Sequence record: MT446388.1
Length of the DNA stretch: 64,000 nt
Direction: 5' to 3' (one strand)
Origin: Escherichia virus TH10
Position 1 is the stretch's first letter; the number at the start of each line of letters is the position of its first letter. Shown here in pieces: positions 4,127-52,833 of the stretch. The notes below the pieces were generated by a model. That model did no database searches. It saw only the letters and a list, made by a program, of their open reading frames with translations, and was not told the DNA's origin. The translations under genes and the position numbers were made by a program.

Positions 4127-4468
4127 ATGGCTTATGTAACCGTAATTACCGATAAAGCTGGCGCATCTTGGTCAACTCAGGTTAGTGATAAGATGTCACC
4201 TATGCAGTGCCTAAAATACTTTGAACAGTGGAACAAAGGCGAGGACACAAGCCCCTTTCAAGTGATGCAGATTATCCATGTAGACAACGAAGGAAATAAA
4301 ACGACGCTGAATAGTGAGTACTATGCAAGCCGTTTTGAAACGAGAAGTAAAACAATGAAACTTTTACGTGAATCCGGTTATGCCCATATCGCCGCGTTAA
4401 TCTGGGATGACCTGCTAAAAAGTCAGCGTATCAGCTATGTAAAACCTGAAAAAATATTCATCAGTTAA
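4127..4468 (+). CDS. hypothetical early protein (113 aa)
   Basis: ORF after cassette. Confidence 0.55.
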   Translation: MAYVTVITDKAGASWSTQVSDKMSPMQCLKYFEQWNKGEDTSPFQVMQIIHVDNEGNKTTLNSEYYASRFETRSKTMKLLRESGYAHIAALIWDDLLKSQRISYVKPEKIFIS

Positions 4469-4635
4469 TCAATAACTTACAAAAAACTTTTAAAAAGTGT
4501 TGACAATACCCCTTGACATTGGTAACTTTGTTCGAGGGGGTTTATCTAAAAGGGATTAACTTAAAAGATTCTTTATAGATAAGCTTAAAAAATTGCTTGC
4601 AATCAGCTATCAAAACAAGTAAATTACTAATCAAC

Positions 4636-4653
4636 GGGAGGGATGACCTCCCC
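4636..4653 (+). promoter_or_regulatory. leader stem-loop, family A variant
   Basis: GGGAGGG-ATGA-CCTCCCC; upstream TTGCAA..TAAATT promoter-like hexamers. Confidence 0.45.
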
Positions 4654-4685
4654 ACTAAATAAAGTCCTAAACTGGAGATTCTAAA

Positions 4686-5216
4686 ATGAACAAATTTCAA
4701 GCTATCAACTTCATTCGTTCAAATGCTGTAATGTCTAAGCCTGTAAAAGATACATACGAATTTCGTTGTAATGGGGTACATTTCGCAACAATCACCAAAT
4801 CAGAAAACGGGGCTTATTACGTTCATCGTCGTAATGTCTCAACCGTTGTAGTCTCTCACTTTATGCAAGCTGTAGCGGAATTATTACCGTTATTCTTAGA
4901 GATTTATCTAGATGAGTGTAAAAACGTTCACAACCACGTTAAAAGCCTTTTAAACGGTTATAAAATGGCTTATGAACGTTCTATCAAGTCACTAAACAAG
5001 TTTTACAATGCACCTGCAAATACTGTTTCAATGGCTTATGATGTAAACGGTGAGTTAGCTAGCCTCTTTAAAGTGGAAGAAATTAAACTGTATAATTTAC
5101 GTCCTAGTGGTTACTCTAAGACTCTTGGTGAAGGTTTAACGTTCAATATCAAGAACTTAGAAAAAACTTTAAAAGATATTGAAAAAGATATTGACGAGAC
5201 AATCAAAAGTCTGTAA
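4686..5216 (+). CDS. hypothetical early protein (176 aa)
   Basis: ORF after cassette. Confidence 0.6.
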   Translation: MNKFQAINFIRSNAVMSKPVKDTYEFRCNGVHFATITKSENGAYYVHRRNVSTVVVSHFMQAVAELLPLFLEIYLDECKNVHNHVKSLLNGYKMAYERSIKSLNKFYNAPANTVSMAYDVNGELASLFKVEEIKLYNLRPSGYSKTLGEGLTFNIKNLEKTLKDIEKDIDETIKSL

Positions 5217-16357: not shown

Positions 16358-16387
16358 TTGACAGACTCTACAAAGTTGCTCTATAGT
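16358..16387 (+). promoter_or_regulatory. sigma70-like promoter (TTGACA-18-TATAGT)
   Basis: hexamers upstream of 16427 gene, A/T-rich UP region. Confidence 0.55.
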
Positions 16388-16426: not shown

Positions 16427-17842
16427 ATGAGCGAATTATTTAAACATGCGCACCTTCATGCAGGTCGAACTGAAAATGGTGCTGTAAACCATACTTCATC
16501 AATGTCTGCTCTTGTAGACTTTTACAAAGCTGCTGGTTCTAGCCGTAGCAATGTAGAAATCTTACCAGACTTGTTCTACAAAGCTTTGCATGAGGATGTT
16601 GATGTTGCAGTTCGTATTTTACTGCATATGCGAGATGTACGAGAAGGTATGGGTGAGCGTAAAGCTTTCCGAACTGTTTTACTTCAAGCAATTGAAGATA
16701 AGATTTTAGAGCCTACACAGGTTCTTCGCATTATGGATAAGATTGCAGAGCTTGGTCGTTTTGATGACTTCAAAATCTTCGTCGGTACTCGTTTCGAAAC
16801 AGATGCCTTCAAACATTTAGAAGCTGCATTACTAGACCCTGCAACAGCAGGTTTGGCAGCCAAGTGGTTACCACGAGTCAAACCACGCCATAAGCATTTT
16901 GTAAAACGTTTCTGCAAGTTTGCAAACTTAAGTGAGAAAGAGTACCGCACACTGTTGTCTGCACTATCTGATACAGTTGAGCAAAAAATCTCTGCTAATG
17001 AGTTTGGTAAGATTGACTACAGTAAGATTCCTTCACTTGCTGCTGCACGTTACCAAAAACTGTTTAACCGTAAAGATGGAGAGCGCTACAAAGCTTACAT
17101 CGAGTCATTATCAAAGGGTGAGGCTAAGATTAATGCTGGTGCTGTTTACCCATACGATGTGATTAAATCTGTTAAGTATGGTAATGCAGATGTTGCTAAT
17201 GAGCAGTGGAAAGCACTACCAAACTGGATGGCAGAGGGTGAAAACATTCTATGTATGTCTGATGTTTCAAGTTCAATGTCTTGGGTGAATTTTGGCTCAA
17301 TTACTGCCCTTGATATTGGTGTATCACTTGCCTTGTATGTAGCAGAACGCAATACAGGTTGCTTTAAGAACGAGTTAATGGTTTATTCAACAAACCCTCA
17401 TTTCATCGAACTGAGTGGCGATTTAAAGAACCGTCACCGTCAGGTAATGCGACATGTTGAATACGGTTCAACTAACTTACAAGCAGCTTTTGACCGCATC
17501 CTTGAGACAGGTAAGAGAAACAACTTGACTCAGAAAGATATGCCAAGTAAGCTTATCATCTTCTCTGATATGGAGTTCAATCAGGTTGACGGTGCAAATG
17601 GTCGTACAAACTTTGAAGCAATTCAGAGTAAGTACAAAAAAGCTGGATATGAGATGCCACAACTGGTATTCTGGTACTTAGCAAACCGTAATGGTACTTG
17701 CGAAGTATCTGTTAAGGATAACGGTGTAGCAATGGTATCTGGTTTCTCTCCAGCCACTTTAAAAGCTCTGCTTGGTGGTGAGAAGTTTGACCCAATCAGT
17801 GTAATGCTCAAAGCAGTAATGATTGACCGTTATATCTGGTAA
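16427..17842 (+). CDS. vWA-domain protein with Ro60 (TROVE+vWA)-like architecture (471 aa)
   Basis: C-terminal MIDAS motif D-V-S-S-S (LCMSDVSSSMSW) and later FSDME typical of vWA; about 270-aa helical N-terminal domain; sits immediately 5' of the tRNA/Y-RNA-like array. Confidence 0.6.
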   Translation: MSELFKHAHLHAGRTENGAVNHTSSMSALVDFYKAAGSSRSNVEILPDLFYKALHEDVDVAVRILLHMRDVREGMGERKAFRTVLLQAIEDKILEPTQVLRIMDKIAELGRFDDFKIFVGTRFETDAFKHLEAALLDPATAGLAAKWLPRVKPRHKHFVKRFCKFANLSEKEYRTLLSALSDTVEQKISANEFGKIDYSKIPSLAAARYQKLFNRKDGERYKAYIESLSKGEAKINAGAVYPYDVIKSVKYGNADVANEQWKALPNWMAEGENILCMSDVSSSMSWVNFGSITALDIGVSLALYVAERNTGCFKNELMVYSTNPHFIELSGDLKNRHRQVMRHVEYGSTNLQAAFDRILETGKRNNLTQKDMPSKLIIFSDMEFNQVDGANGRTNFEAIQSKYKKAGYEMPQLVFWYLANRNGTCEVSVKDNGVAMVSGFSPATLKALLGGEKFDPISVMLKAVMIDRYIW

Positions 17843-17860
17843 AAAGTTTTAAAAAGGGTA

Positions 17861-17889
17861 TTGACAATGTGTTTAATACCCTTTAATAT
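17861..17889 (+). promoter_or_regulatory. sigma70-like promoter (TTGACA-17-TAATAT)
   Basis: hexamers between the vWA gene and tRNA array. Confidence 0.5.
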
Positions 17890-17951
17890 GTTCTACATAG
17901 AAACGAAATGAGAGCTTTTCTAAGATACTGAAAAATATTTTAAAAAAGTTC

Positions 17952-17980
17952 TTGACAATCACTAAAAAATAATGTTAAAG
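17952..17980 (+). promoter_or_regulatory. possible promoter (TTGACA .. TTAAAG)
   Basis: -35 good, -10 weak; about 30 nt upstream of first tRNA. Confidence 0.35.
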
Positions 17981-18007
17981 TGGTTACATAGAGTTTGAAA
18001 AGTTTAT

Positions 18008-18084
18008 CTCTGTTTAGCTCAGCTTGGTAGAGCGTTCCGTTTGGGGCGGTAAGGCCGGAGGTTCAAGTCCTCCAACAGAGACCA
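18008..18084 (+). tRNA. tRNA-Pro (UGG)
   Basis: 7-bp acceptor CTCTGTT/AACAGAG, T-arm GGAGG-TTCAAGT-CCTCC, loop ttTGGgg, encoded CCA. Confidence 0.75.
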
Positions 18085-18091
18085 AATTAAT

Positions 18092-18169
18092 GTTCCAGTA
18101 GACAAAATGGTAAAGTCACCACTCTTTCAAAGTGGATATCTGAGGGTTCAAATCCCTTCTGGAACGCCA
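18092..18169 (+). tRNA. tRNA-Glu (UUC)
   Basis: acceptor GTTCCAG/CTGGAAC, anticodon stem CCACT/AGTGG, loop ctTTCaa, CCA. Confidence 0.8.
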
Positions 18170-18176
18170 GTTTTGA

Positions 18177-18248
18177 CAGAAGACCAATTACAGCAAACTT
18201 AATCTACTCATCTGAAAGTTAATCGGACAAAGAAGATATTTGGTCTGG
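18177..18248 (+). ncRNA. structured element 1 (CAGAAGACC..GGTCTGG helix)
   Basis: 5' CAGAAGACCAA pairs with 3' TTGGTCTGG; no ORF; one of 4 copies with compensatory changes. Confidence 0.4.
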
Positions 18249-18259
18249 TCATTAAGAAT

Positions 18260-18336
18260 TGCGGGTATAGAGAAAGGGCGTCTCACATGTCTCATTAGCA
18301 TGGTATCGGCAGGTTCGACTCCTGCACCCGCCTCCA
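18260..18336 (+). tRNA. tRNA with CAU anticodon (Met or Ile2), atypical
   Basis: T-arm GCAGG-TTCGACT-CCTGC, acceptor with 1-72 mismatch, loop ctCATta, CCA; irregular D arm and 6-nt variable region. Confidence 0.55.
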
Positions 18337-18342
18337 ATTTTG

Positions 18343-18401
18343 CAGAAGACCGTATTCAGCAACAAAATACTTTTTGCGGATAAAAGAAAAACACGGTCTG
18401 G
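18343..18401 (+). ncRNA. structured element 2 (CAGAAGACC..GGTCTGG helix)
   Basis: 5' CAGAAGACCGT pairs with 3' ACGGTCTGG. Confidence 0.4.
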
Positions 18402-18412
18402 CAATGTATTAA

Positions 18413-18489
18413 GGTTAGGAAGCACATAAGGTATGTGCGGTCGCCTGTTAAGCGAATGGCACAGGGTTCGAATCCCTGACTAACCGCCA
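18413..18489 (+). tRNA. tRNA-Asn (GUU)
   Basis: T-arm CAGGG-TTCGAAT-CCCTG, D-stem GCAC/GTGC, loop ctGTTaa, CCA. Confidence 0.75.
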
Positions 18490-18497
18490 AATTAAAT

Positions 18498-18585
18498 GTG
18501 TCGTTATCCCGTAGATGGTAGCGGTGGGGACTGTAAATCCCTTGTCATTGAGACTCGGTAGGTTCGACTCCTACACGGCACACCA
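18498..18585 (+). tRNA. tRNA-Tyr (GUA), type II
   Basis: acceptor GTGTCGT/ACGGCAC, anticodon stem GGGGA/TCCCT, loop ctGTAaa, long variable arm, T-arm GTAGG-TTCGACT-CCTAC, CCA. Confidence 0.8.
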
Positions 18586-18590
18586 ATAAA

Positions 18591-18667
18591 GGCTATGTAG
18601 TTTAACTGGAGAAAATACTCCCCTGTCACGGGAGATGATGTGAGTTCAAGTCTCATCGTAGCCGCCA
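18591..18667 (+). tRNA. tRNA-Asp (GUC)
   Basis: acceptor GGCTATG/CGTAGCC, anticodon stem CTCCC/GGGAG, loop ctGTCac, CCA. Confidence 0.8.
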
Positions 18668-18728
18668 ATTTTGAGAGGGCTATTTAGCCCCTCCCTTAAA
18701 GAGTTCTTACGAGTATTCTTTAAAGGAG

Positions 18729-18804
18729 CAGAAGACCAAATACAGCAAGAACGTATGAAAATTTCAAGCCAATTTAATTTTGAAAAATTTAAAACTTGGT
18801 CTGG
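18729..18804 (+). ncRNA. structured element 3 (CAGAAGACC..GGTCTGG helix)
   Basis: 5' CAGAAGACCAA pairs with 3' TTGGTCTGG; interior A/T-rich. Confidence 0.4.
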
Positions 18805-18817
18805 CTCAACAAATTTA

Positions 18818-18948
18818 CAGAAGACCGTTTACAGCAAAACTTAAACAATCTATTTCTCGGTAAAGAAAAGGCGAAGGTTCGATTCCTTCACTCGGCAGAT
18901 GTCGAGTTGGTGTAATGGTAGCACTTAAGATGATAAACAACGGTCTGG
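18818..18948 (+). ncRNA. candidate Y-RNA-like RNA: permuted tRNA-like module closed by terminal helix
   Basis: order is helix strand (CAGAAGACCGTT), T-arm (GAAGG-TTCGATT-CCTTC), acceptor 3' strand ACTCGGC, 4-nt loop, acceptor 5' strand GTCGAGT (7 bp incl. one G-U), D-arm GTG-TAATGGTAG-CAC, helix strand (AACGGTCTGG). Confidence 0.5.
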
Positions 18949-19097
18949 TAATTGTCTTTGTAGATAAGTTATTAAGCTTACCTGTGAGTATGCGACCACA
19001 AAGGGTGAAAGGGTAAATTCTAGATTTAAACCCAAAAAGGCACATCGCTACAGACCTTAAGCAAGTCTGGGTAGCTTATCTACAAAGATAATTTAAT

Positions 19098-19173
19098 GGA
19101 AGTGTAGCAGAATGGTGATGCGGCAGACTTTTAATCTGACAGGCGATGGGTTCGAATCCCTCCACTTCTACCA
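19098..19173 (+). tRNA. tRNA-Lys (UUU)
   Basis: acceptor GGAAGTG/CACTTCT, anticodon stem CAGA/TCTG, loop ctTTTaa, GGGTTCGAATCCC T-arm, CCA. Confidence 0.7.
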
Positions 19174-19251
19174 AATTCACCCTTAACTGAGAAACACCTG
19201 CGCGGCTGGAAACACCCACTCAACAGTTTCTCTAACTAGGGTACTTATTCT

Positions 19252-19328
19252 GGTTCAGTCGCAGATAAGGTAATGCAAGGGTCTCATAAGCCCTATGAAT
19301 GTGGGTTCGATTCCCATCTGAACCTCCA
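19252..19328 (+). tRNA. tRNA with CAU anticodon (Met/Ile2)
   Basis: acceptor GGTTCAG/CTGAACC, anticodon stem AGGGT/GCCCT, loop ctCATaa, T-arm GTGGG-TTCGATT-CCCAT, CCA. Confidence 0.7.
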
Positions 19329-19329
19329 A

Positions 19330-19405
19330 GCTGGTATAGTTAAGAAGGTTATAACACTCCCCTGATAAGGGAACATCGGTGGTTCGATTCCACCTACCAG
19401 TACCA
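19330..19405 (+). tRNA. tRNA-Ile (GAU)
   Basis: acceptor GCTGGTA/TACCAGT, loop ctGATaa, T-arm GGTGG-TTCGATT-CCACC, CCA. Confidence 0.75.
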
Positions 19406-19420
19406 ATTTCAATAAAGTTG

Positions 19421-19449
19421 TTGACATTGAGATGTGACAGCTTTATAGT
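19421..19449 (+). promoter_or_regulatory. sigma70-like promoter (TTGACA-17-TATAGT)
   Basis: consensus hexamers inside tRNA array; followed by about 200 nt ORF-free transcript before tRNA-Arg. Confidence 0.55.
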
Positions 19450-19652
19450 AACCTTAGTTTTCGTTGCGTAGCGTCTATTTTGCAAATTTAAAATAAATGC
19501 AAACGACAATGTTTTTCTGGCAGTAGCTTGATAGGCTAAACACCAGTGAGGTCTTCCAACCCCTCATCAAAGAATTTGGCGTACTAGCCCACGGTATGAT
19601 TAATAAGGTGGGCATCTTTAAGGGCTTTCTCAGAGAGTCTTTAAAGATTAAT

Positions 19653-19729
19653 GCACCCTTAGTTCAATTGGATAGAGCAACGGTCTTCTAAATCGTTAGT
19701 TACAGGTTCGAATCCTGTAGGGTGTGCCA
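19653..19729 (+). tRNA. tRNA-Arg (UCU)
   Basis: acceptor GCACCCT/AGGGTGT, D-arm AGTTCAATTGGATAGAGC, loop ctTCTaa, T-arm ACAGG-TTCGAAT-CCTGT, CCA. Confidence 0.8.
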
Positions 19730-19962: not shown

Positions 19963-20367
19963 ATGAAACTTTGTAGAAAATGTTCTCAAGAAAAGCCTTT
20001 AAGCTGCTTTCATAAAAGAGGTAATGGCTATCAGTCTGCTTGCAAAGATTGTAAAGCTAAGTACTCAGCAAAGAGATACAAAGAAGACCCTACTTATAAA
20101 GCAAAAAGAAAAGTTAGGGCAAAATATGACAAAAAGAGGAACAGAGAGTTCCTTAGTAGATATAAAAAGTTTTGCAAATGCAGAATATGTGGCGAATCTG
20201 AGCCAGTAGCTTTGGATTTTCATCACTTAGACCCTAAAGAGAAAGATTTTGCTCCAAGCAATCTTAAAACTTACTCTAGGGGCACTATTAAGCGTGAAGT
20301 CCGTAAGTGTGTTGTGCTTTGTTCAAACTGTCATAGGAAAGTTCATGCAGGACTGTTAAGTATTTAA
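19963..20367 (+). CDS. HNH endonuclease (134 aa)
   Basis: Cys-rich zinc-binding N-terminus; HNH motif DFHHLDP..N..VVLCSNCHRKVH; embedded in tRNA array. Confidence 0.8.
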   Translation: MKLCRKCSQEKPLSCFHKRGNGYQSACKDCKAKYSAKRYKEDPTYKAKRKVRAKYDKKRNREFLSRYKKFCKCRICGESEPVALDFHHLDPKEKDFAPSNLKTYSRGTIKREVRKCVVLCSNCHRKVHAGLLSI

Positions 20368-50967: not shown

Positions 50968-51353
50968 AATGACCTCAAAGTTATATTAAATTTTGTATTA
51001 CATTGAGTATAAAAATAAGCTATAACACCTGACTTGTCAACAGATTTTATAGCTTATTTGGCAGATTTTTTATAAGGCTACTGCCATCCTTCCAAACTAT
51101 ACCAAACCTAACCCCACCTAACCCCACCTAACCCTACCACACCAGACCTAGCCTAACCTTGTTAAAAGACCCTCTTAAAGACCTTTTAAAAAGGTAAGTC
51201 TCATTTTAATGTAGCTGAGACTAACTACCCATACCAGACCCTACCTTACCAAACCAGACCTCACTCTACCCCACCATACCGTATACTACCTCATTAAAAG
51301 ACCCTCTTAAAGACCTTTTAAAAAGGAGCCTCCGAAGAGGCTACCTAGTCAAC
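50968..51353. repeat. CA-rich repeat region R1 with conserved core
   Basis: iterated CCAGACC/CCTTACC/CCTAACC units; about 65-bp core (51164-51240) near-identical to 52575-52641; terminator-like AGCCTCCGAAGAGGCT at about 51327. Confidence 0.7.

Positions 51354-51796: not shown

Positions 51797-52833
<1,037 letters not shown>

What the first reader, a model, noticed from the sequence alone, without database searches (positions are those of the whole stretch)
18177..18948. Four-copy family of structured elements with a covarying terminal helix
Four ORF-free elements (18177-18248, 18343-18401, 18729-18804, 18818-18948) begin with CAGAAGACC(N2-3) and end with the complementary (N2-3)GGTCTGG. The variable positions next to AGACC change in a compensatory way (AA with TT; GT with AC), supporting a conserved RNA helix rather than a protein motif. 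Only the fourth copy contains the tRNA-like module. CCAGACC/GGTCTGG also recurs in the CA-rich repeat regions at 50968-51353 and 52400-52833.
Basis: seen in the sequence. Interest (0 to 1): 0.7.

Follow-up and report, generated by a model that had tools for sequence, protein, structure and literature searches.

The report
Phage Y-like RNAs beside Ro60-like gene
The four repeated elements are real, structured small RNAs interleaved with this Felix O1-like phage's tRNA genes, and they are most likely the unidentified "Y RNA" partners of the Ro60-like ring protein encoded just upstream, as members of a widespread phage RNA family that is in no Rfam model I searched.

Summary
The window comes from a Felixounavirus. 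Four elements lie 330-1,100 nt downstream of a 471-aa gene (16427-17842). Pfam files that gene as DUF2828+DUF7788, and its predicted fold matches Ro60/Rsr.

Each element has:
- a 4-bp covarying outer helix (NNNC/GNNN)
- a conserved 3x1 internal loop (AGA/G)
- a 7-8-bp inner helix (AGACCNN/NNGGUCU)
- an invariant single-stranded CAGCAA
- a variable interior

Only E4 carries a T-arm, acceptor-like hairpin and D-arm, in the permuted order seen in bacterial YrlA.

The same signature (AGR-helix, CAGCAA, YCU-G) sits next to homologues of this gene, on the gene strand, in phages of Klebsiella, Campylobacter, Mycobacterium, Listeria, Staphylococcus, Bacillus and Enterococcus, and in dozens of metagenomic contigs. 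A covariance model gave 59 hits in 535 kb of such loci, all on the gene strand. It gave 2 hits in 764 kb of control viral DNA, both in the only control locus with the gene.

No Rfam family matches. The YrlA motif GNCGAAG is absent. The Bas63 orthologue gp130 is reported to counter the ppl defence.

Best reading: Y RNA-like partners of a divergent Ro60, a new variant of a known kind. Binding was not tested.

The parts
16358..16387 (+). Sigma-70-like promoter upstream of the Ro60-like gene (TTGACA-18-TATAGT)
   Evidence: Consensus scan, 11 of 12 matches. This is a pattern match only.
16427..17842 (+). Gene for the 471-aa Ro60-fold protein (Pfam DUF2828 + DUF7788; alpha-helical repeat ring plus vWA domain with MIDAS residues). 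It is 97% identical to Bas63 gp130.
   Evidence: Pfam hits at 2.3e-29 and 1.8e-43. AF2 model with pLDDT 86.5 and pTM 0.88. The ten best Foldseek PDB matches are all Ro60/Rsr/TROVE, with E 8.5e-9 to 2.2e-6 and TM 0.48-0.65. D279, S281, S283, T349 and D381 are invariant in 29 homologues. Bas63 comparison.
17861..17981 (+). Two sigma-70-like promoters (17861-17889 and 17952-17981) that would drive the tRNA/Y-like RNA array
   Evidence: Consensus scan, 10 of 12 each. Inference only.
18174..18251 (+). E1, a short Y-like RNA. Outer helix 18174-18177/18248-18251, loop AGA 18178-18180 opposite G 18247, inner helix 18181-18187/18240-18246, ACAGCAA 18190-18196.
   Evidence: Sequence, MFE fold, CM R1 46.5 bits, pair counts. 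It lies between tRNA-Glu (ends 18169) and tRNA-Met (starts 18260).
18340..18404 (+). E2, a short Y-like RNA. Outer helix 18340-18343/18401-18404, AGA 18344-18346 opposite G 18400, inner helix 18347-18353/18393-18399, TCAGCAA 18356-18362.
   Evidence: CM R1 45.5 bits (seed member). Orthologues show the compensatory change TTGC/GCAA <-> TTAC/GTAA.
18726..18807 (+). E3, a short Y-like RNA. Outer helix 18726-18729/18804-18807, AGA 18730-18732 opposite G 18803, inner helix 18733-18739/18796-18802, ACAGCAA 18742-18748.
   Evidence: CM R1 37.7 bits; pair counts.
18815..18951 (+). E4, a YrlA-like RNA. Outer helix 18815-18818/18948-18951, AGA 18819-18821 opposite G 18947, inner helix 18822-18829/18939-18946, ACAGCAA 18831-18837. 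The interior tRNA-like module has a T arm at 18873-18889, a 7-bp acceptor-like hairpin at 18890-18907 (loop AGAU), U-G, and a D arm at 18910-18924.
   Evidence: An alignment with seven homologues from other phages shows a covarying T arm and acceptor hairpin. ARAGORN and the Rfam tRNA model do not call it as a tRNA.
18950..19097 (+). Adjacent ~150-nt structured RNA, possibly a fifth partner (uncertain). It has a ~24-bp terminal stem and a hairpin at 19053-19071 (CAGAC/GUCUG) with loop CUUAAGCAA.
   Evidence: RNAalifold on 6 Ounavirinae sequences gave 44 pairs, 9 of them with double-sided changes. It has no CAGCAA and gives no CM R1 hit.

Best explanation
E1-E4 are four paralogous small non-coding RNAs of the Y RNA type. 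They are the RNA partners of the divergent Ro60-like ring protein encoded at 16427-17842.

Shown here:
- They sit on the same strand as the gene, 330-1,100 nt downstream, inside the phage tRNA array.
- Each has its 5' and 3' ends paired in a two-part stem: a 4-bp outer helix, a conserved AGA/G internal loop and a 7-8-bp inner helix.
- The stem is followed by an invariant single-stranded CAGCAA, a variable interior and an A-rich 3' segment.
- The same stem-plus-CAGCAA signature accompanies homologues of the protein in very distant phages.
- E4 and its counterparts carry a tRNA-like module (T arm, closed acceptor-like stem, D arm) in the permuted order of bacterial YrlA.

Inferred:
- The RNAs are co-transcribed with the tRNAs from the promoters near 17861 and 17952. 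They would be released by tRNA processing, with RNase P cutting 8 nt after E1 and E2 and 3' maturation of the tRNA lying 3-4 nt before them.
- The conserved stem base (A-G-R paired to Y-C-U), the unpaired G and CAGCAA form the docking site for the Ro-like ring.
- The variable interiors, which are a tRNA mimic in E4 and simple U/A hairpins in E1-E3, recruit different effectors or substrates. This would resemble Y RNAs tethering Ro60 to PNPase.
- The RNP acts on RNA during infection. In the close relative Bas63 the protein is needed to overcome the ppl defence system.
For: Partner protein:
- The protein has a Ro60 fold, invariant MIDAS residues and is 97% identical to Bas63 gp130.
- Bas63 gp130 is reported as Ro60-like and as a counter to ppl. 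Its authors guessed that Y RNAs hide in the downstream tRNA array.

Structure within Ounavirinae:
- 11 pairs are 100% paired in 35 distinct copies.
- The outer helix and the NN positions were not used to select these copies.

Family-wide signal:
- 51% of WCAGCAA motifs on the gene strand are closed by a >=7-bp helix, against 19% after shuffling. On the opposite strand the figures are 23% and 22%.
- CM R1 gave 59 hits at E<=0.05 in 535 kb of Ro-like loci. All were on the gene strand and almost all lay within about 0.7 kb of the gene.
- The inner helix is 98.4% paired with 147 double-sided changes.

Controls and independent lineages:
- In 764 kb of unrelated viral DNA R1 gave only 2 hits, both in L099, the one control locus with a homologue of the gene.
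- In the 64-kb window only E1-E4 score.
- Staphylococcus, Bacillus and Enterococcus phages were not in the seed alignment. They have the elements directly beside the gene.

tRNA-like cargo and literature:
- The cargo recurs in Klebsiella, Mycobacterium and metagenomic phages, with a covarying T arm and acceptor hairpin.
- The order T arm, acceptor stem, D arm and the closed acceptor match published YrlA.
- In Listeria phage CKA15, highly transcribed unannotated regions lie upstream of the Rsr-like gene. Three elements are found in that position in the related LMSP-25.
Against: - No binding, expression or end-mapping data exist for these RNAs in this phage.
- The association with the protein is genomic only, and most loci were collected by anchoring on the protein. 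The reverse test rests on a single positive control locus.
- The published Ro-binding motifs (GNCGAAN0-1G in YrlA, GGUCCGA in animals) are absent.
- No Rfam family matches, even at E<=10.
- Single-sequence folding z-scores are modest, from -1.5 to -2.8.
- Some homologous loci show no element within the flanks fetched: Aeromonas, Serratia and Sinorhizobium.
- Many members of alignments A3 and A4 were selected or fitted with the helix, so their percent-paired values lean high.
Confidence: 0.7

Rival explanations
1. The elements are structural punctuation of the polycistronic tRNA precursor. On this view they are spacer hairpins that guide or insulate RNase P/E/Z processing, are then degraded, and have no dedicated protein partner.
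For: They are packed 3-8 nt from flanking tRNAs. In Bacillus phage Nate one copy also lies between two tRNAs. Many Ro-like loci contain tRNA genes.
Against: The same elements occur beside the gene where no tRNA is adjacent. Examples are mycobacteriophage Kingsolomon at 4462-4719, Staphylococcus phage at 4479-4704, and metagenomic loci L028, L062, L074 and L082, which have no tRNA hit. The other 20 or so tRNA junctions in the window lack them. An invariant single-stranded CAGCAA and a tRNA-mimic cargo are not needed for a spacer.
Confidence: 0.12
2. They are cis-regulatory or autoregulatory sites for the Ro-like gene's own mRNA, or protein-titrating decoys, rather than trans-acting RNP subunits.
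For: In Campylobacter, Listeria and Enterococcus phages the elements lie directly upstream of the gene. In KVP40-like Vibrio phages a lone AGACAUUUUACAGCAA sits in the 5' UTR.
Against: In Felixounavirus, mycobacteriophage and Staphylococcus phages they lie downstream of the stop codon. In the window they are behind separate promoter-like sites. They occur in up to 3-4 tandem copies with different cargo, including tRNA mimics, which fits separate RNAs better. This rival still implies binding by the same protein.
Confidence: 0.1
3. They are DNA-level elements, such as miniature inverted-repeat mobile elements or recognition sites of a homing endonuclease in the tRNA region. On this view the terminal inverted repeat is a DNA feature.
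For: They have terminal inverted repeats and multiple copies. HNH endonuclease genes occur in the tRNA regions.
Against: All 59 model hits are on the gene strand. G-U pairs occur and the reciprocal A-C pairs do not. Positions are syntenic across genera with no target-site duplications. The helix sequence differs completely between lineages while CAGCAA and the unpaired G stay fixed.
Confidence: 0.03
4. They encode small proteins, as some GenBank records annotate.
For: Mechanical ORFs of 44-57 aa overlap them. Hypothetical proteins are annotated over them in HP1, Bas63, S-CoN_Ph16 and VRE9_1.
Against: Indels of 1-6 nt occur among orthologues. The annotated ORFs lie on different strands in different records. 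Conservation follows base pairing, not codons.
Confidence: 0.01

Closest known systems
Bacterial YrlA / YrlB (Y RNA-like RNAs bound by Rsr, the bacterial Ro60; Chen et al. 2014, PMC4201824; Wang et al. 2018, bioRxiv 312249)
   Same: Both are encoded within about 1-2 kb of, and on the same strand as, a Ro60-fold protein gene. Both occur as several paralogues per locus. In both, the 5' and 3' ends pair into a stem with a conserved motif at the 5' side. One paralogue (E4) has a tRNA-like module in the order T arm, closed acceptor-like stem, D arm, with U8, G18G19 and a TΨC-type loop. The others (E1-E3) lack it, like YrlB.
   Different: The protein is not a Pfam TROVE member (it is DUF2828+DUF7788, 11-16% identical to solved Ro60s). 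The conserved RNA motif is an AGR...YCU stem base plus an unpaired G plus CAGCAA, not GNCGAAN0-1G. The genes are interleaved with functional tRNA genes. Some homologues (Mooglevirus E4, L049) carry discriminator+CCA after the acceptor 3' strand.
Phage Y RNA-like RNAs with canonical Ro60 (mycobacteriophage ET08 and others in Chen 2014; Thermus phage phiLo Yrl1/Yrl2, PMC12135203)
   Same: Both are phage-encoded Ro60 plus neighbouring stem-bulge-stem RNAs. For phiLo, binding and a ternary complex with host PNPase were shown in vitro.
   Different: Those phages have recognisable TROVE proteins and the CGAA motif. This family has a different protein branch and a different motif, and nothing has been shown biochemically.
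Metazoan Y RNAs (Rfam RF00019)
   Same: Terminal stem interrupted by a conserved bulge or internal loop as the Ro60 site, with a variable effector loop.
   Different: There is no sequence or covariance-model similarity. These RNAs have no Pol III/La features, and E4 has a tRNA-like cargo.
Permuted or split tRNA genes and tRNA-like structures
   Same: In E4 the 3' half (T arm plus 3' acceptor strand) precedes the 5' half (5' acceptor strand plus D arm).
   Different: E4 has no anticodon arm. The position of the anticodon stem leads into the Ro-type stem, and the acceptor stem is closed by a 4-nt loop. tRNA finders do not call it.

Membership tests
YrlA / bacterial Y RNA-like | Encoded near, and on the same strand as, a Ro60 orthologue | tested here: met
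   The elements lie 330-1,100 nt downstream of a Ro60-fold gene on the same strand. The same holds for all 59 model hits in 75 sources. The protein is a structural, not a Pfam-level, Ro60 relative.
YrlA / bacterial Y RNA-like | 5' and 3' ends pair to form the stem that carries the Ro-binding site | tested here: met
   Two-part terminal stem, 100% paired in 35 copies with covariation. Family-wide it is 98.4% paired.
YrlA / bacterial Y RNA-like | Conserved 5' motif GNCGAAN0-1G (CGAA) | tested here: not met
   The 5' region reads NNNCAGAAGACCNN(N)WCAGCAA. No CGAA is present. The family invariants are CAGCAA and a 3' unpaired G.
YrlA / bacterial Y RNA-like | tRNA-like module in the order T arm, acceptor-like stem-loop, D arm, without a free CCA end | tested here: met
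   E4 at 18873-18924. It is conserved with covariation in 8 lineages. E1-E3 lack it, like YrlB.
YrlA / bacterial Y RNA-like | Physical binding by Ro60/Rsr, with accumulation dependent on it | not testable with these tools
   Needs RIP/CLIP, EMSA or Northern blots in a gene-deletion phage.
Rfam families (Y_RNA, tRNA, any of 4,227 models) | Covariance-model score at or above the gathering threshold | tested here: not met
   Only tRNAs pass in the window. No relevant hit on E1-E4 at E<=10. In 16 diverse homologous loci only tRNAs and one permuted tmRNA pass. I could not verify whether a YrlA model is in the library.
Ro60 / Rsr (TROVE + vWA) protein family (for the partner gene) | Ring of alpha-helical repeats plus a C-terminal vWA domain with a MIDAS motif | tested here: met
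   AF2 model pTM 0.88. Full-length Foldseek matches to 9KOP, 2I91, 1YVR, 9NFA and 2NVO. DxSxS...T...D is invariant.
Ro60 / Rsr (TROVE + vWA) protein family (for the partner gene) | Sequence-level match to Pfam TROVE or to solved Ro60 chains | tested here: not met
   Pfam gives DUF2828 + DUF7788 only. phmmer against PDB sequences finds nothing at E<=0.01.
tRNA | Cloverleaf with an anticodon arm, in the canonical 5'-to-3' order | tested here: not met
   ARAGORN and Rfam tRNA do not call E1-E4. E4 is permuted and lacks an anticodon arm.

The most novel reading that the evidence does not exclude
These RNAs would define a previously unrecognised, phage-wide class of Ro-partner RNAs with its own recognition code: an AGR/YCU stem base, an unpaired G and single-stranded CAGCAA, read by the DUF2828 branch of the Ro60 fold. 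The stem would act as a universal adaptor that presents interchangeable cargo to the ring protein. The cargo includes closed or CCA-bearing permuted tRNA mimics, near-complete tRNAs, and even a functional-looking tRNA-Asp carrying the motif as an insert. The RNP would be an RNA-based anti-defence device, countering ppl in Felix O1-like phages and working with RtcB or RNA ligases elsewhere. If so, Y RNAs would be anti-defence RNAs rather than housekeeping quality-control factors.
Probability: 0.3. Interest if true: 0.85.

Novelty: new variant of a known kind. Interest (0 to 1): 0.72.

Why it matters
Ro60-Y RNA particles are conserved from bacteria to humans, yet their function in bacteria and phages is still poorly understood.

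A 2024 genetic screen showed that the Felix O1-like phage Bas63 needs its Ro60-like gp130 to overcome the ppl defence system. Its authors could only guess that Y RNAs hide among the annotated tRNAs. This analysis points to four specific unannotated RNAs, and possibly a fifth, and gives a defined motif that can be mutated. That turns the guess into a directly testable model in a tractable E. coli phage.

It also supplies a sequence-structure signature and a working covariance model for a family present next to DUF2828 genes in hundreds of phages of Gram-negative, Gram-positive and actinobacterial hosts. In many of these the elements are currently unannotated or mis-annotated as small hypothetical proteins.

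Finally, it gives a first functional handle on the DUF2828/DUF7788 family.

Tried and rejected
- **Rfam.** A gathering-threshold scan of the window, an E<=10 scan of 17800-19700 and a gathering scan of 16 homologous loci gave no family for the elements.
- **PDB by sequence.** phmmer of the protein against PDB sequences found nothing. Only fold comparison revealed Ro60.
- **Reverse search.** I scanned IMG/VR with AGGNNNNNTTACAGCAAAC (14 specified bases). The 120 stretches returned were almost all chance matches: 116 had neither helix nor gene. They were useful only as a negative control for the model.
- **Loose helix descriptor.** My >=7-bp helix descriptor has a 19-22% chance rate. I therefore relied on the covariance model and on strand and position statistics.
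- **CA-rich repeats.** A relation to the repeats at 50968-51353 and 52400-52833 is rejected. They are on the opposite strand, have pentamer periodicity and give no model hit.
- **Other readings.** Coding potential, MITE or homing-site readings and terminators were considered and rejected (see rivals). No U-tract follows the stems.
- **Literature.**
  - Supplements of Chen 2014 are not held.
  - The 2020 Annual Review is not held.
  - 'Felix O1' plus 'Y RNA' found nothing.
  - 'DUF2828' found only unrelated plant and tardigrade papers.
  - A transcriptome search was unspecific.
  - A guessed accession for Bas63 was wrong before the right one was found.
- **Loci without elements.** None were seen within the fetched flanks of the Aeromonas, Serratia and Sinorhizobium loci.
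Full report
**Context.** The window is from a Felix O1-like phage. A 1,251-nt query across the finding is 99.4% identical to Enterobacteria phage KhF2 and 96-98% identical to many Felixounavirus genomes. In total 237 phage records cover at least 80% of it. ARAGORN finds 27 tRNA genes on the + strand between 18008 and 23510. The four elements lie in gaps of the first part of this array: E1 between tRNA-Glu and tRNA-Met, E2 between tRNA-Met and tRNA-Asn, and E3 and E4 after tRNA-Asp.

**Observation.** The sequences are as described. AGAAGACC occurs 9 times in 64 kb against 2.3 expected, and GGTCTGG 19 times against 4.4 expected. The four + strand pairs are at the reported positions.

In all four, three further bases on each side pair: TGAC/GTCA, TTGC/GCAA, GAGC/GCTC and TTAC/GTAA. 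The common architecture is therefore:
- a 4-bp outer helix ending in an invariant C-G
- an internal loop of AGA on the 5' side opposite a single G
- a 7-8-bp inner helix AGACCNN/NNGGUCU
- 1-3 nt, then CAGCAA
- a variable interior and an A-rich stretch

The true extents are 18174-18251, 18340-18404, 18726-18807 and 18815-18951.

**Covariation within Ounavirinae.** I collected every copy from 18 Ounavirinae genomes using only the AGAAGRCY, CAGCA and GGTCTG strings. Neither the outer helix nor the NN positions were used for selection. This gave 35 distinct E1-E3 sequences.
- All 385 pair cells of the 11 proposed pairs form standard pairs.
- Five pairs change on both sides.
- Sliding the 3' partner by one column drops pairing to 32-46%.
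- There are 7 G-U cells and no A-C cell, as expected for RNA on the + strand.

Most of this covariation is between paralogues. However, E2 orthologues also switch TTGC/GCAA to TTAC/GTAA, and single changes give wobble pairs (AGGCC, AGACU and AGACCGA opposite UUGGUCU). Ortholog lengths vary by 1-6 nt, which argues against coding.

**The neighbouring gene.** The ORF at 16427-17842 (471 aa) ends 330 nt before E1.
- Pfam gives DUF2828 and DUF7788 but not TROVE. Sequence search of PDB chains finds nothing.
- An AlphaFold2 model built on 29 homologues is confident, with pLDDT 86.5 and pTM 0.88.
- Its ten best PDB fold matches are all Ro60 proteins. They are Thermus phage phiLo Ro60 (9KOP), Xenopus Ro60 (2I91, 1YVR, 1YVP), human Ro60 (9NFA, 9NEP, 9NF8) and Deinococcus Rsr (2NVO). 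E-values run from 8.5e-9 to 2.2e-6, TM-scores from 0.48 to 0.65, at 11-16% identity. After these come isolated vWA domains.
- The MIDAS residues D279, S281, S283, T349 and D381 are invariant.
- Homologues occur in 709 phage records, some annotated 'Ro-like RNA binding protein'.
- The protein is 97% identical to gp130 of phage Bas63.

A 2024 preprint reports gp130 as structurally Ro60-like and as required to counter the ppl defence system. It speculates that some of the downstream annotated tRNAs are Y RNAs. In Bas63 the four elements are present in unannotated gaps or under minus-strand hypothetical ORFs, not among the annotated tRNAs.

**The family beyond Felix O1-like phages.** Looking next to homologues of the protein in distant phages, I found the same design with entirely different helix sequences.

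| Phage | Protein identity | Elements seen |
|---|---|---|
| Klebsiella phage FBKp34 | 52% | At least three, directly downstream and before its tRNA array |
| Campylobacter phage CP30A | – | Two, directly upstream |
| Mycobacteriophage Kingsolomon | – | Three, directly downstream |
| Listeria phage LMSP-25 | – | Three, directly upstream |

A protein-profile scan of IMG/VR gave 80 more loci.
- A simple descriptor (WCAGCAA preceded by the 5' strand of a >=7-bp helix that closes within 180 nt) hit 162 times on the gene strand and 31 times on the other strand.
- In a de-replicated set, 93 of 183 gene-strand motifs are closed by such a helix, against 18.6% after shuffling the downstream sequence. 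On the opposite strand 19 of 84 are closed, against 22% shuffled.
- A 37-sequence alignment of short elements shows that CAGCAA and a G immediately after the 3' strand are invariant. The second helix pair is almost always G-C.

The consensus is 5'-A-G-R-N4-5-(N0-2)-WCAGCAA ... A-rich ... N4-5-Y-C-U-G-3'. The Felix-type AGACC.../...GGUCU-G fits it.

**Covariance model R1.** I built R1 from that alignment.
- In the window it finds only E1-E4, at 46.5, 45.5, 37.7 and 21.6 bits. The next hit has E = 0.37, and nothing scores in the CA-rich repeats.
- Over 75 sources (535 kb, both strands) it finds 59 hits at E<=0.05. All are on the gene strand and almost all lie within about 0.7 kb of the gene's start or stop.
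- On the resulting alignment the helix is 98.4% paired, with 147 double-sided changes. Four positions show all four Watson-Crick pair types, and the covariation score is 0.967 against 0.21 shuffled. This alignment is fitted to the model and many members are seeds, so these figures lean high.
- As a control I used 100 unrelated IMG/VR stretches (764 kb) that contain AGGN5TTACAGCAAAC by chance. The model hits only twice, both in L099. L099 is the only one of the 120 retrieved stretches (the 100 scanned among them) in which tblastn finds a homologue of the protein, on the same strand 1.7 kb away.
- Phages not used in the seed confirm the pattern. Staphylococcus phage S-CoN_Ph16 has three tandem copies starting 15 nt after the stop codon. 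Bacillus phage Nate has three copies between its tRNA array and the gene, one of them between two tRNAs. Enterococcus phage VRE9_1 has one just upstream.

**The tRNA-like cargo.** E4 contains:
- a T arm GAAGG-UUCGAUU-CCUUC (18873-18889)
- a 7-bp hairpin ACUCGGC-AGAU-GUCGAGU (18890-18907), which corresponds to a closed acceptor stem
- U-G
- a D arm GUGU-AAUGGUA-GCAC (18910-18924)

Equivalent modules occur in the long elements of Mooglevirus, another Ounavirinae genus, Klebsiella phage FBKp34, mycobacteriophage Kingsolomon and several metagenomic lineages. An alignment of eight of them recovers the T arm and the acceptor hairpin with compensatory changes.

This order (T arm, acceptor-like stem-loop, D arm) and the closed acceptor are the published hallmarks of bacterial YrlA. 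In Mycobacterium smegmatis a 7-bp acceptor stem makes YrlA a substrate for RNase P and CCA addition. E4 also has 7 bp. The Mooglevirus and L049 versions even have discriminator+CCA after the 3' acceptor strand. Cleavage of E4 is an inference.

**Comparison with what is known.** The elements work like Y RNAs of the YrlA/YrlB kind. The parallels are several paralogues beside a Ro60-fold gene, a terminal stem with a conserved motif, a tRNA mimic in one member, and simpler hairpins in the others. They fail one defining sequence feature of YrlA, the GNCGAAN0-1G (CGAA) motif, which is also used by Thermus phage phiLo Yrl1/2. They match no Rfam model.

The partner protein fails the sequence-level TROVE test but meets the structural one. 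I therefore file this as a new variant of a known kind: a Y RNA-like family specific to the DUF2828 branch of Ro60, not a member of YrlA proper.

Published work comes close but does not define these RNAs. The Bas63 preprint guessed that the Y RNAs were among the annotated tRNAs. A Listeria phage study saw three highly transcribed unannotated regions upstream of its Rsr-like gene, found the protein in virions, and listed Y RNAs as one possibility. A jumbo-phage survey noted ROT/TROVE proteins with 'a tRNA-like partner' in general terms.

**Mechanism (mostly inferred).** Promoter-like sites at 17861 and 17952 precede the array, and another at 16358 precedes the gene. The elements would be transcribed with the tRNAs and released by RNase P and 3' processing of their neighbours. 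This would leave short tails of 3-4 nt at the 5' end and about 8 nt at the 3' end.

The conserved stem base, the unpaired G (within the AGA/G loop in Felix-type RNAs) and CAGCAA would dock on the Ro-like ring. The variable interiors would recruit different effectors or substrates. By analogy with Deinococcus, Salmonella and phiLo, a 3'-5' exonuclease such as PNPase is the first candidate. Linkage to RtcB or RNA ligase genes in the Listeria and Serratia phage loci suggests RNA repair or tRNA-damage contexts. Genetics on the protein places the RNP in countering ppl.

**Limits.** There are no expression, end-mapping or binding data for this phage. The RNA-protein link is by genomic association, and the loci were mostly collected through the protein. 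The reverse test has one positive locus. Some homologous loci show no element within the flanks fetched. I could not confirm whether Rfam holds a YrlA model.

Noticed in passing
window 18950-19097: A ~150-nt structured RNA lies directly after E4. It has a ~24-bp terminal stem (CUUUGUAGAUAAG.../...CUUAUCUACAAAG) that keeps pairing through compensatory changes in Mooglevirus. It also has an internal hairpin CAGAC/GUCUG (19053-19071) whose loop CUUAAGCAA resembles the CAGCAA motif. It may be a fifth, divergent partner RNA.
   Followed up: partly
window 19421-19652: A strong promoter-like site (TTGACA-17-TATAGT) is followed by a tmRNA-like tag frame at 19497-19532: GCA AAC GAC AAU GUU UUU CUG GCA GUA GCU UGA UAG = ANDNVFLAVA**. 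The Rfam tmRNA hits are sub-threshold (tmRNA_permuted 28.7 bits against a gathering score of 47; tmRNA model positions 56-294 at 16.2 bits). ARAGORN calls no tmRNA and no tRNA-like domain is evident. It could be a degenerate or two-piece phage tmRNA. The C-terminal ...AVA differs from the host ...LAA degradation signal.
   Followed up: partly
L002 6003-6116 (Klebsiella phage vB_KpM_FBKp34, MW394390.1): A 114-nt tRNA-Asp(GUC) scores 47.7 bits with Rfam tRNA. It carries a ~38-nt insert between the D arm and the anticodon stem, made of a hairpin CUUCU/AGAAG followed by UUUUACAGCAU. This is the Ro-partner motif embedded in an otherwise normal-looking tRNA.
   Followed up: no
L071 4828-4928 (IMG/VR contig 3300038393_000245): This element's closing AGG.../...CCUG stem replaces the acceptor stem of a nearly complete tRNA in normal order (D arm, anticodon-like arm, T arm; Rfam tRNA model positions 5-66, 55.7 bits). 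It is a second way of fusing tRNA-like cargo to the stem.
   Followed up: no
L001 6398-6522 (Citrobacter phage HP1) and L049 4654-4788: In these E4-type RNAs the 3' strand of the acceptor-like stem is followed by discriminator+CCA (…ACCCUUC-G-CCA-AACA-GAAGGGU…; …CCCCG-A-CCA-AUUCAAA-CGGGG…). RNase P cleavage could therefore yield a nicked tRNA mimic with a CCA-proximal 3' end.
   Followed up: no
window 50968-51353 and 52400-52833: Two intergenic regions between minus-strand genes contain pentamer-periodic ACCNN repeats (TRF periods 5, 10, 15 and 20). They also share a ~70-nt module: uuaaaagacccucuuaaagaccuuuuaaaaagguaagucucauuuuaauguagcugagacuaacuaccc. Their function is unknown. They are unrelated to E1-E4.
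   Followed up: partly
L003 3959-3980 (Vibrio phage XZ1) and L026: In KVP40-like Vibrio phages a single AAAGACAUUUUACAGCAA lies in the 5' UTR of the Ro-like gene, 20 nt before the start codon. There is no convincing closing helix (CM E = 0.02). It may be an autoregulatory binding site.
   Followed up: no
L058 338-619 (IMG/VR contig 3300042556_003130): A bona fide permuted tmRNA (Rfam RF04321, 90.9 bits) lies about 2 kb upstream of the Ro-like gene, on the same strand as the Y-like elements and a tRNA.
   Followed up: no
window 19963-20367: A 134-aa ORF with weak HNH endonuclease matches (E about 0.006) is inserted in the tRNA array. Similar HNH or homing endonuclease genes lie in the tRNA/Ro-like regions of other phages (L002, L005, L213).
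   Followed up: no
window 17853-17884: A 12-bp inverted repeat (AAAGGGUAUUG...AAUACCCUUU) overlaps the -35 element of the first promoter-like site after the Ro-like gene. It could be a terminator for the gene or an operator.
   Followed up: no
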